Source of the DNA: Octopus sinensis
Taxonomy: Eukaryota
NCBI RefSeq assembly: GCF_006345805.1
Contig: NC_043017.1
Span: forward strand, 22,258,001 to 22,322,000
DNA length: 64,000 nt
Direction: 5' to 3'
Part shown: positions 216-53,919 of the stretch, one piece after another
Layout: each line of letters opens with the position of its first letter
Position numbering within the stretch: position 1 is the first letter of the stretch
The notes under the pieces: model-generated
What the model was told of the DNA's origin: nothing
Databases searched by the model: none
What the model saw: only the letters and a program-made list of their open reading frames with translations
Position numbers and translations under genes: made by a program

Positions 216-423
216 TGGAAAGGGTTTGTTATTATTATTCTTATAATTCATATTTTGAGAAATACATTGAAAATTTGCTTTCTGGGAACGAGAATTAGGT
301 ACATTTTGGAGAATGTGCATACAAGTATTTAAGATTAACAAGGATGTTACTGGCAAACAAAACTATTCAAAATTAACTAAAGTGTCCATTATTATTATTA
401 TTATTATCCATTACACTGTGTAA

Positions 424-977
424 TGACCAGAAGAGAATTAATGCATTCCAGCTTTGGTGTTGGAGAAGACTTTTACGGATTCCATGGACAGCGAGGCTCA
501 CCAATGGAGAAGTTCTTAAGCAGATCAGGCCAAAAATGTCGCTAGAAGCTAGGATCACCAAGCATAGATTGGCATATTTCAGTCATATTACGCGGAAAAA
601 ATCCCTAGAGAAGGACATCATACTCGGAATGGTCAGTGGCAAGAGAGAGACAGCGAGGCTCACCAATGGAGAAGTTCTTCAGCAGATCAGGCCAAAAATG
701 TTGCTAGAAGCTAGGATCACCAAGCATAGATTGGCATATTTCGGTCATATTATGCGGAGAAAATCCCTGGAGAAGGACATCATACTCGGAATGGTCAGTA
801 GCAACAGAGGAAGAGGCCGACCAAGAACCCGCTGGCTTGACACCATCAAGAGTGATATCGGAATGGACATAGCCAATCTGAAAGAAGTGGCCCAGGATAG
901 AACTGACTGAAGGACACTGATCCAACGAGTAACCGAGAGTCGACTTCGACTGAGCGGATAGATAGATAGATAGATAG
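424..977 (+). mobile_element. RTE-clade LINE, 5'-truncated 3' end with internal 162-bp duplication
   Basis: Translation AFQLWCWRRLLRIPWTAR...RLAYFGHIMR...LEKDIILGMV...RGRGRPRTRWLD is the RTE RT C-terminus; (ATAG)n tail; 14-bp TSD ATTACACTGTGTAA at 410-423 and 978-991. Confidence 0.93.
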
Positions 978-20930: not shown

Positions 20931-21020
20931 AAACCATGCTAGCATGGAAAACGGACGTTAAACAATGATGATGATCATCATCATCATATACATATATATA
21001 TATATATTTATTTTATAGAA

Positions 21021-21075
21021 GGAGCTTCTACAGGACTAGAACTGTTTCATTCAAAAGAAATCATCAGGAAGCTCC
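21021..21075 (-). ncRNA. Type I hammerhead ribozyme
   Basis: GGAGCTTC-CTGATGA-TTTCTTTTGAAT-GAAACAG-TTCTAGTC-CTGTA-GAAGCTCC: 8-bp stem I, canonical core, 3-bp stem II, 4-bp stem III, GUA cleavage triplet. Confidence 0.8.
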
Positions 21076-21119
21076 TGATGATTTCTTTTGAATGAAACAG
21101 TTCTAGTCCTGTAGAAGCT
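21070..21119 (+). ncRNA. Type I hammerhead ribozyme (mirror copy)
   Basis: AGCTC-CTGATGA...GAAACAG...CTGTA-GAAGCT; stem I carries a 1-nt bulge; predicted cleavage after 21113. Confidence 0.7.
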
Positions 21120-21201
21120 CCTTCTATAAAATAAATTAATTTACTCTGCTATGTATTGAGTACCTTATTTACTGTGGTTAACCCCGACTCAACCCGGGAC
21201 C

Positions 21202-21238
<37 letters not shown>

Positions 21239-35774: not shown

Positions 35775-36811
35775 TATTATATCCCCCATTGCTAATATTT
35801 TTTTTTATTTAAAAGCCCTCATGAAGACACTTCTATTTATTTATTTATTTATTTATTTATTTATTTTGCTGTCTTATCCCTTCATGATGCATTTCTTTGC
35901 TAACCACTTCCAGATTTTAGTTTCCTGATTCATGTCAAATAGAGTTAGTTGTTCGTTAAACATTTTGCTACTTGCTTTGCCATAGTCAAGTATAGAACGG
36001 TTCTCTGGTCATGAATAATCAGTATAAAGGTAACGAAGGCTCAATCAACAGGTAATTTCCAATAATGAAATTATTCTAGAAATAGTTGTAAGTTACTGAT
36101 ATCTGGCTATGGTGTGGAGGTGAGAGATCAAAGCAAAAGAGCGAGAGGAGCAAATGAGGGCAGGCAGAAACTGCTGTACAAGGTTAAGGTTTTGATTTAA
36201 AATCAAGCAATAGTGTCGAATGAATGTTCATGAACAAGTGTAAGGAAAAGGATTAGCCAGAAAGGTTTGTTTCAGATAGCAAAGGTTTCAGCGTTTTGTG
36301 TCAGTTGAGCTGGCATGAGAGATATGGAAGTGTCAGGAAGAATTTGCACAGAGTGAAATCTCCAAGTATGATTAAATCGGAATATCAGAGAAGAGAGCAA
36401 TTTGGCTGTTGACCTCAGTGTAGGAAATAAAATCATTGAAATGGAATGTTGGTTTCGTTGGAGAAGTTTAAAGAATGACACCAGCAGTTGGTGATAATTG
36501 TGTTGATGAGAGCCTTTCTTGGGGAATAATTGATAGCAGAACCTTTTCCACCTTAAATATAAACTCCAGTTAATGAAGGCAAATAGAGGCAAAGGTTCAA
36601 TGTAGGATAAAAGTAATAGTGCACCATATCACTATGTATATATATATGTGTGTGAGTCTATTTTGTGTGCGTGTGTATATATATATATACATATATATAT
36701 ACATATGCATATATGTGTGTTTTATATGTGTATGTGTATGCATATATATATATATATAATAGGCACAGGAGTGGCTGCGTGGTACGTAGCTTGCTTACGA
36801 ACCACATAATT

Positions 36812-37207
36812 TGTCCTATGCTTGCGAAACTGTTTCTAGAGGGAAACACAATCTTTCAAGATGATAATGCGACATTTCCCACAGCTAAAGTTGTTACTGA
36901 ATGGCACGAAGAACATTCTAGTGAAGTTGAACATCTTATCTGGCCACCTCAGTCCCCAGATCTCAATATTATTGAACATTTTAGAAAAACAAGCAAGGAG
37001 TCGATATCCTCCACCATCATCACTACAAGAACTGGAGATTGTTTAGCTGAAGAATGGACAAAAATTCCTTTGGAAAGAATTCAAACTTTGTATGAGTCCA
37101 TACTTCATAGAATTCAAGCTGTAATTATTGCCAAAGCAGTCCTACCCCATATTAAAATAAATTTGCTTGAAATTTTAACATATTTCCATTATTTTGTCCA
37201 ACTCCTG
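36812..37207 (+). mobile_element. Tc1-like transposon, DDE C-terminal fragment and right TIR
   Basis: IFQDDNA...WPPQSPDLNIIEH...EEWTKIPLERIQTLYESI; TIR ATTATTTTGTCCAACTCCTG followed by TA. Confidence 0.92.
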
Positions 37208-37209
37208 TA

Positions 37210-37225
37210 TATAGCAATGTATATG

Positions 37226-37262
<37 letters not shown>

Positions 37263-37538
37263 TTGTATATATATGTATATATGCATATATGTATATATGA
37301 AGATATATAAATATATATATATGCTTATACATATATATGTATGTATATCTATATACATTTATATATATACATATATGCATATACATATATATGTATGTAT
37401 ATCTATATACATTTATATATATACATATATGCATTTACATATATATGTATATCTATATACACTTATATAATACATATATCCATACATATATATATATATA
37501 TTATATATATATTTCATCATCATCATCATCATCGTTTA

Positions 37539-53177: not shown

Positions 53178-53919
53178 GTAAGTGTTGTAATGGATTACTA
53201 GGCCTGGAGTTTGTCTCTGATGATGGAATATCCCATACTCTGGGATATCCCAGAAACAGCTGTAAGTCTTTGAATGTTTTCCAATAATAATAATGTATAT
53301 ATTCGCCTTGCTTAACGTTTGTTCTCCTCTTTAACAATTATCTATACATACATTCATACATATTATTTGATATCCCATTATTATGGACAACTGACTAAAA
53401 CATCTCTCTATCAATTTATTTAACTATCTGTTTTATTGTTGTCAAAAATAAAAATGAAATCAAATGTCAAGACTCGTATAATAAAACAAACTAGATAAGC
53501 TATGATAAATCATCACACCTTCTGCATCAGCTGGGAATATTAAGAGATATTATGACCTAATCATGGGGTTGATAACCAACTAACCAATAATTGTTAACTA
53601 ACTGAAATACATGAATCATCATTATTAAAACCCAAGAGATTGTTTTTTGCACCATGTTACTATCAACATATCACAAACCACCCGTGTTTTCTTGTTTTGT
53701 CTTATTTTGTTGTTGTTGTGTGTGTCTAGTTTGTTTGTATTTCATTGATTGATCGACTGGTTGCATGACTGTTTGCTTCCGCAAGCCACAAAATACTGAA
53801 ACTAGAAGGTCGAGATATTTTATTAATGGTTATTGAACGGATTAAAAAAATTATTTCGACTCTTTTTTTTTTTCAGATGTGGGGTGGGAAATGATGAGAT
53901 GGTACCAGGGCCTTTCACC

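What the first reader, a model, noticed from the sequence alone, without database searches (positions are those of the whole stretch)
21006..21136. Twin back-to-back hammerhead ribozymes forming a perfect palindrome
Seen: 64-bp perfect arms with a 3-nt spacer. The minus strand folds into a complete type I hammerhead (8-bp stem I GGAGCUUC/GAAGCUCC, CUGAUGA, short stem II, GAAA, stem III ACAG/CUGU, GUA site). The plus strand gives the same fold with a 1-nt bulge in stem I. The two overlap at the palindrome centre, so the inversion point lies in stem I. A transcript from either strand carries a ribozyme preceded by its own antisense, so cleavage would compete with a 64-bp duplex, which is a potential ADAR or Dicer substrate. 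Established: Penelope-like elements carry pLTR hammerheads and often have inverted pLTR ends. Inference: stem I complementarity drove fold-back or template switching, and perfect arms imply a recent event. The plus arm continues ~65 bp (to ~21200) and the unit sits in a TA repeat.
Basis: partly seen in the sequence, partly recalled or inferred. Interest (0 to 1): 0.8.

Follow-up and report, generated by a model that had tools for sequence, protein, structure and literature searches.

The report
Hammerhead-centred mini Penelope-element insertion
This 200-base mirror-image stretch is one of roughly 900 similar stubs of a Penelope-like jumping gene in this genome, and its turning point lies where the element's RNA likely starts, which suggests that such mirror ends form when two DNA copies run off the RNA's start and are joined.

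Summary
The palindrome is real: 64-bp perfect arms, AGC spacer, a hammerhead core on each strand. It is neither unique nor a purpose-built twin ribozyme. It is a short insertion of an abundant Hydra-clade Penelope-like element (PLE): the hammerhead plus a 69-nt 'tail', preceded by an inverted copy without the tail, in (TA)n. Full elements (pLTR, RT-GIY-YIG ORF, 3-kb UTR) are in the genome.

About 900 loci turn at this spot, and the exact centre occurs 120 times, on several subfamilies and with the tail on either arm. So it is rebuilt at insertion. Arms stop sharply at the first base of stem I (38 of 89), 29 nt below a conserved TATA box, often with an extra G (17 of 22). That points to a capped transcription start.

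Best model: two cDNAs, primed from opposite target strands at +23 and +92, run off the RNA 5' end and are joined head to head. RNA ends and cleavage are untested. Known architecture, new family, useful handle on an open PLE mechanism.

The parts
20992..21005 (.). left remnant of the (TA)n target
   Evidence: family copies sit in (TA)n
21006..21073 (-). inverted short arm: native element sequence from -45 (A of AGCUUC, 21073) through the hammerhead to +23; no tail
   Evidence: inverted arms end at +16..+27 in 52 of 54
21073..21074 (+). junction: T shared by both arms; C at 21074 fits either the direct arm or a cap-copied C at the end of the short-arm cDNA (then 2-nt microhomology TC; inferred)
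21029..21067 (-). hammerhead core C3..A17, minus arm; predicted cut after 21029; stem I 21076-21068 with 21028-21020
21075..21113 (+). hammerhead core C3..A17, plus arm; predicted cut after 21113; stem I weakened by the junction
21101..21108 (+). loop III UUCUAGUC with central palindrome CUAG, able to pair two copies (dimeric fold; predicted)
   Evidence: stem-loop III self-dimer -12.8 kcal/mol; invariant among subfamilies
21073..21204 (+). direct arm: element from -41 to +91; 129-130 of 133 nt identical to pLTR+tail of full-length copies L111, L116
21137..21204 (+). PLE 'tail' (about 69 nt), present on one arm only; in full elements it lies between the pLTR and the ORF start
21205..21237 (.). 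right (AT)n target; first 4 nt ATAT also match the native continuation CTAC-ATAT-CC

Best explanation
The palindrome is a 200-bp insertion of a Hydra-clade Penelope-like element, likely made when two cDNAs, primed from opposite strands of a nicked (TA)n target, ran off the RNA's probable capped 5' end at the first base of hammerhead stem I and were joined head to head. Shown: it is the element's hammerhead and tail plus an inverted tail-less copy, one of about 900 that turn here, formed repeatedly. Inferred: transcription starts at A(-45), 29 nt below a TATA box in the pLTR; the element's protein primes at two AU-rich sites 23 and 92 nt past the cleavage site, one per target strand; priming near the 5' pLTR gives these stubs, priming near the 3' pLTR gives long copies; the template is mostly uncleaved; the 3' end of one cDNA anneals to the other by 0-4 nt (AGCT palindrome, or TC with the cap-copied C as in this window) or is end-joined with a short insert. 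The twin-ribozyme look is a by-product; any transcript through the stub would fold into a 64-bp hairpin that shuts both cores.
For: Parent: full copies with HHR-tail-ATG, RT and GIY-YIG. Size: 3,325 exact tail words, 4,400 exact HHR 5' halves. Sample of the first 100 tail hits on C1, 96 loci kept: 49 short with adjacent inverted arm, 8 short solo, 39 long; 26 of 96 have an arm ending at -44..-46. Of 89 arms reaching -44, 38 stop at -44..-46, 2 end at -47..-72, 49 run past -72. TATAAAT begins 29 nt upstream in 44 of 52 arms with native upstream, spacing kept while the bases between differ among subfamilies. Base 5' of A(-45) is G in 17 of 22 non-palindromic ends, against 1 of 44 native arms; C follows GGAAGCT in 75 of the first 100 of 485 rows (counted by eye); a joint with an extra G before this base is in run X16 (table 5c). 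Extra G marks the cap at L1 5' junctions (PMC11702581, passages). Same centre on loop subfamilies TTTT, ATTT, TCTT, with the tail on the AGC strand in 18, on the other in 25 (+1 with damaged tail), on both in 1 of 45. One tail only in 43 of 45 (p 3e-11 against free choice). Five junctions (L048, L051, L135, L163, L170) keep both arms complete to -44/-45 with inserted bases between. A PLE protein cuts and extends both target strands, primes at two internal sites and uses uncleaved RNA in vitro (PMC11167929, parts 1-2).
Against: No RNA 5' ends were seen: only contigs were available. The control for the extra G at host junctions was not supportive: 4 solo copies with G against 5 with C (2 are a native subfamily, 1 a fold-back). 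Two of the 17 G ends belong to a subfamily whose native base may be G. Both arms share subfamily marks in 78 of 81 palindromes (27% expected at random), which fold-back of one cDNA explains as easily. The commonest junction (34 of 65 loci listed) is the perfect AGCT palindrome, which needs no cap C. Later recombination between the arms could flip the spacer and mimic the two polarities. D. virilis Penelope has a TATA-less internal promoter (PMC2377424), so a TATA start is not the rule. The sample is one chromosome and exact-match words, so it favours young copies.
Confidence: 0.6

Rival explanations
1. Same element and same RNA start, but the inverted arm is made by fold-back (self-priming) of one cDNA or of an antisense template, and the endonuclease later trims one arm to leave the tail on one side.
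For: Published reading of PLE head-to-head palindromes (PMC3846280, passages; tail from EN resolution in PMC8557442). Arms concordant in 78 of 81. Commonest junction is the 4-bp AGCT palindrome.
Against: A target-primed cDNA that folds back gives the tail on one polarity only; both occur, 18 vs 25-26, and this window has the polarity that simple fold-back cannot give. Junctions with two complete ends and an insert (L048, L051, L135, L163, L170) need two free ends or a ligated hairpin.
Confidence: 0.22
2. The hot spot is not the RNA start; it reflects the AGCT palindrome or a protein or structure block at the edge of stem I, or a splice acceptor (TTAACTAG|CTTCC) as in D. virilis Penelope.
For: No RNA end data. 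Host-junction control inconclusive. The D. virilis intron ends at helix I (PMC4209133). AG is kept in all subfamilies.
Against: Arms stop at -45 also when AGCT is not used; conserved TATA at -29; extra G; bases beyond the stop vary (CA, CC, CT), so no constant upstream exon; the stop includes the AG rather than starting after it.
Confidence: 0.13
3. One reading: stem I complementarity (or ribozyme cleavage) sets the inversion point, and the twin ribozyme is a functional switch.
For: 16 copies are joined through the 6-nt stem I homology exactly at the cleavage site. The core is conserved: subfamily variants from -32 to +6 fall only in loop II, plus N7.
Against: 16 against about 900; 14 against 485 rows in matched searches. 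Junctions are very varied, and most destroy one or both cores. Conservation belongs to the parent element.
Confidence: 0.03
4. The palindromic unit is a non-autonomous element copied whole from one master, or an assembly artefact.
For: Twelve copies are 100% identical over the 136-nt arm with the same centre.
Against: Same centre on at least four subfamily backgrounds, tail on either arm, a continuum of other junctions, fold-back seen in other public contigs.
Confidence: 0.02

Closest known systems
Hydra clade of C-terminal EN+ Penelope-like elements (Craig et al. 2021, PMC8557442; includes Hydra-1_Obim)
   Same: RT then GIY-YIG; RWR (for RWK), DKT, CxCX5C linker, CxxC and CxH around E and N; (TA)n target; hammerhead in the pLTR.
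   Different: A different family from Hydra-1_Obim (protein start and hammerhead differ by eye). Unit about 5.0-5.4 kb with a 3-kb TG/TA-rich 3' UTR, against under 3 kb; tail about 69 nt against 30-40; about half of sampled insertions are stubs under 250 bp.
PLE insertions with an inverted 5'-truncated pLTR and a one-sided tail (Arkhipova et al. 2013, PMC3846280; Cervera and de la Pena 2014, PMC4209133)
   Same: Head-to-head inverted repeat, palindromic junction, tail on one arm; hammerheads on opposite strands 100-700 bp apart were noted in Schistosoma.
   Different: Here the junctions pile at one base, with a TATA box and an extra G, and both polarities occur; the papers read offer self-priming on an antisense template and leave the question open.
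Poseidon PLE of Anolis in vitro (Frangieh et al. 2024, PMC11167929)
   Same: Two internal priming sites bounding the tail just 3' of the hammerhead near the ORF start; AT-rich target; both strands cut and extended; cleavage not needed.
   Different: That work does not address the inverted arm or the RNA 5' end; it reports no homology between primer and RNA, whereas both sites here share AU/TA letters with the target.
Non-LTR retrozymes (PMC7229834 passages; bioRxiv 10.64898/2026.07.22.740005 part 1)
   Same: Short, non-coding, type I hammerhead, PLE-derived.
   Different: Retrozymes are head-to-tail tandems that yield circles; these are dispersed head-to-head stubs.
L1 twin priming and cap-derived 5' G (G: PMC11702581 passages; twin priming recalled)
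   Same: Two target-primed cDNAs joined by microhomology; extra G at full-length 5' ends.
   Different: In L1 the two cDNAs cover different parts of the RNA; here they overlap, giving a palindrome.

Membership tests
Penelope-like element (EN+) | single ORF with RT and C-terminal GIY-YIG endonuclease | tested here: met
   RT motif GLYRDDG, then VYTCEV..YIG; homologues carry PF26215/PF01541. A direct Pfam scan found no RT or GIY-YIG model.
Penelope-like element (EN+) | pseudo-LTRs from partial tandems, hammerhead within | tested here: met
   L111, L112, L113, L116
Penelope-like element (EN+) | inverted 5'-truncated copy and one-sided tail | tested here: met
Hydra clade | RWK motif, DKT motif | tested here: met
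   IRWRSFFF (K to R) and SDKTKN
Hydra clade | CxCX5C linker; CxxC and CxH around conserved E and N | tested here: met
   CNCPDKTTC; CDLC..E..N..CMH
Hydra clade | (TA)n insertion preference | tested here: met
Hydra clade | generally short (<3 kb) | tested here: not met
   core-to-core 4.8-5.4 kb in L111-L113; a tendency in the paper, not a diagnostic
Hydra clade | RT phylogeny groups with Hydra references | not tested
   no tree built; similarity to published Hydra proteins seen by eye only
Neptune clade | CX2-5CxxC linker and CCHH motif | tested here: not met
   linker is CxCX5C
Type I hammerhead ribozyme | core CUGANGA, GAAA, UH with three helices | tested here: met
   stem II is 3 bp closed by U.U instead of G10.1-C11.1
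Type I hammerhead ribozyme | match to an Rfam hammerhead model | tested here: not met
Type I hammerhead ribozyme | compensatory changes in stems | tested here: inconclusive
   stems invariant among 129 arms, so no covariation to score; relatives' DNA could not be fetched
Type I hammerhead ribozyme | self-cleavage after GUA | not testable with these tools
   predicted monomer population 0.5% native, 4% minus arm, 2e-6 plus arm
Non-LTR retrozyme | head-to-tail tandem units | tested here: not met
   single head-to-head unit in the window and most copies

The most novel reading that the evidence does not exclude
In this Hydra PLE the capped transcript begins at the first base of the hammerhead, and the inverted pLTRs typical of Penelope-like elements are made by obligatory two-ended priming: one cDNA from each target strand, at two fixed sites on an uncleaved RNA (or an RNA pair held by the palindromic loop III), joined at their 3' ends. 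The ribozyme would act as a 5' leader or dimerisation element rather than as the cutter that defines the template, and about half of all insertions would be 200-bp hairpin stubs, seeding the genome with over a thousand perfect double-stranded RNA substrates.
Probability: 0.4. Interest if true: 0.7.

Novelty: new member of a known kind. Interest (0 to 1): 0.45.

Why it matters
How PLEs make inverted pLTRs, and what their hammerheads do, are open questions in the papers read (PMC3846280, PMC8557442). This family gives hundreds of young junctions with base-level signatures and names a precise test: a capped start at one base, two priming sites, two joined cDNAs. It also shows that 'twin hammerheads' in animal genomes can be plain insertion by-products. 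If transcribed within host RNAs, the stubs would be double-stranded substrates for editing or silencing; that is untested.

Tried and rejected
Rfam: no hammerhead family hit. Pfam: no RT or GIY-YIG model on two ORF pieces. Neptune assignment, my first guess from memory, dropped. Flip-flop hairpin-replication idea for the four isomers dropped once junctions proved to be a continuum. Single master copy rejected. Constant upstream exon not seen. Host-junction G versus C control: 4 vs 5, no support. No host gene was evident among ORFs of 130 aa or more in the window; the gene context is unknown. Target-site duplication cannot be read in (TA)n. Paper searches with no direct precedent: Penelope + twin priming, 3 unrelated papers; Penelope + hammerhead + TATA box + transcription start, 0; octopus + hammerhead ribozyme, nothing on this family; subscription papers are not covered, and bioRxiv supplements were not seen.

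Full report
Observation. The two arms (21006-21069, 21073-21136) are exact reverse complements around AGC, fold at -105.3 kcal/mol, and each carries a hammerhead core with predicted cuts after 21113 (+) and 21029 (-). Rfam has no hammerhead match. The genome is 2.72 Gb; its repeats look octopus-like to me (recalled, not from a call). Positions below count from the first base after the cleavage site; -45 is the A of AGCUUC, the first base of native stem I.

It is a family. A search with the plus arm returned 40 scored full-length matches at 99-100%, nearly all with an inverted partner. The exact 23-nt centre occurs 120 times, a 26-nt tail word 3,325 times, the 5' half of the hammerhead 4,400 times; reversed controls gave 0. 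A pattern for turns at AGCT gave 1,376 strand hits. The first 100 rows are 65 loci: 34 perfect GGAAGCTTCC, 18 of the window's GGAAGCTCC type (12 on the CTGATGA and 6 on the CTGAAGA subfamily), 6 GGAAGCTCTTCC, 7 others (counted by eye). That scales to about 900 loci.

The parent. Walking upstream from long copies led through about 3 kb of TG/TA-rich sequence to an RT-GIY-YIG ORF; 366 candidates match that ORF piece. Full copies read pLTR with hammerhead, tail, ATG 58 nt after the tail end, ORF of about 700 aa, UTR, pLTR. None of the six long loci read had an unbroken full ORF; frames of 650+ aa exist. Motifs match the Hydra clade of Craig et al. 2021 (section 11). It is not the published Hydra-1_Obim (supplement). 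The window's direct arm matches the pLTR and tail of full copies at 129-130 of 133 nt.

Anatomy of insertions. I took all first 100 tail hits on C1 and dropped 4 (one mis-fetched, three duplicates): 49 of 96 are short with an adjacent inverted arm, 8 short solo, 39 long. Direct arms end at +87..+92 in all 96; inverted arms end at +16..+27 in 52 of 54. Both ends share AT letters with the target. Among 45 loci picked only by the exact centre, the tail is on the AGC strand in 18, on the other in 25, damaged in 1 and on both in 1. Arms share subfamily marks in 78 of 81 palindromes, 27% expected by chance; the 3 exceptions are private changes. So the junction is rebuilt at each insertion from one template or one source locus, and the two ends use different sites in a coordinated way.

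Why the turn is here. Of 144 arms traced, 89 reach -44; 38 stop at -44..-46, 2 end in the next 26 nt, 49 run on (ends further upstream are unreliable because the trace breaks at homopolymers). TATAAAT starts 29 nt upstream of -45 in 44 of 52 arms with native upstream, 48 of 52 have the box at that spacing, and the bases between differ among subfamilies. In 22 non-palindromic ends at -45 the next outer base is G in 17, while native arms have G there in 1 of 44 (two of the 17 may be native; perfect palindromes, ends at -44 and two odd arms were left out). Genome-wide, C follows GGAAGCT in 75 of the first 100 of 485 rows; of the 25 G rows 7 are a native subfamily and 16 read into CTGA (by eye). 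Run X16 holds the fold-back at this base and a joint with an extra G. An extra G marks the cap at full-length L1 junctions (PMC11702581, passages). Against this: solo copies joined to (TA)n show G in 4 and C in 5, and no RNA ends were available. With a cap-copied C the window's junction has a 2-nt microhomology (TC), which would explain why it is the second commonest type (inference).

Copies joined through stem I homology exist: a single core in a 23-bp stem I, with the tail on either side. There are 16. Matched patterns give 14 rows leaving the native sequence at the cleavage site, about 6 of them mere substitutions or indels, against 485 at -45. So neither stem I pairing nor cleavage sets the usual turn; most templates were uncleaved, as found in vitro for Poseidon (PMC11167929, parts 1-2 read).

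The ribozyme. From -32 to +6, variants above 5% among 129 arms fall only in loop II; N7 is A or U in equal shares; variation at C3-G5 comes from junctions. Sequence just upstream of -45 varies freely. This fits selection on the parent's hammerhead, but the stems are invariant, so there is no covariation. The monomer fold is weakly populated (0.5% native, 4% minus arm, 2e-6 plus arm), while stem-loop III can self-pair at -12.8 kcal/mol, as in PLE hammerheads thought to work as dimers (PMC4209133, parts 1-2). A U.U at the base of helix II is known from an axolotl hammerhead (PMC7229834, passage). Cleavage is untested.

Mechanism. Best model (0.6): the element's protein nicks both strands of (TA)n and primes two cDNAs, at +92 and +23; near the 5' pLTR both run off the capped start after 137 and 68 nt; one 3' end anneals to or is joined with the other. 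Evidence for two ends rather than fold-back: both polarities occur, this window has the one that fold-back of a tail-primed cDNA cannot give, and five junctions keep both arms whole with inserted bases. Fold-back with endonuclease trimming (PMC3846280 passages; PMC8557442 passages) remains possible (0.22), as does later flipping of the spacer. That the stretch is a PLE stub is near certain; the RNA start is likely (about 0.75); two-ended priming is the least secure step.

Novelty. Inverted pLTRs, palindromic junctions, one-sided tails and opposite-strand hammerhead pairs are in print. D. virilis Penelope starts in its pLTR from a TATA-less promoter (PMC2377424, passages). I found no paper placing the start at stem I or deriving the inverted arm from two cDNAs (open-access library only). 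Unchecked notes of this scan report similar pile-ups at the hammerhead edge in other genomes; they are leads, not support. Verdict: new family of a known kind, with a testable handle on an open mechanism; interest 0.45.

Noticed in passing
window 53217-53265 (+): A second, unrelated hammerhead-like motif: CUGAUGA, long stem II (GAAUAUCCCA/UGGGAUAUCC), GAAA, palindromic helix III ACAGCUGU, UA, weak stem I; resembles PLE minimal hammerheads. Probably another PLE family.
   Followed up: partly
L111-L113 3' UTR (e.g. L111, about 3 kb between ORF stop and 3' pLTR): The element carries about 3 kb of TG/TA-rich low-complexity sequence and inserts into (TA)n, so it spreads its own target and may add to this genome's microsatellite load.
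   Followed up: partly
L032, L033, L035-L044: Rare copies hold one core inside a 23-bp perfect stem I, with the tail in either orientation; these would be much better monomer ribozymes than the parent.
   Followed up: partly
L011 (G000:C2:134072589-134075724): Host flanks on both sides of the stub are inverted repeats of each other; chance SINE pair or inverted duplication at insertion.
   Followed up: no
L082, L083, L084: Pairs of identical stubs 1.1-1.8 kb apart with duplicated flanks: local tandem duplications or assembly repeats.
   Followed up: partly
L115 (G000:C1:120862000-120871900): Inverted arm made of ORF sequence joins the direct copy inside stem II of the hammerhead, near the inferred RNA start.
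   Followed up: no
window 377-910 (+) and 36656-37300 (+): Fragments that look like a LINE reverse transcriptase C-terminus and a Tc1-like transposase (names recalled).
   Followed up: no
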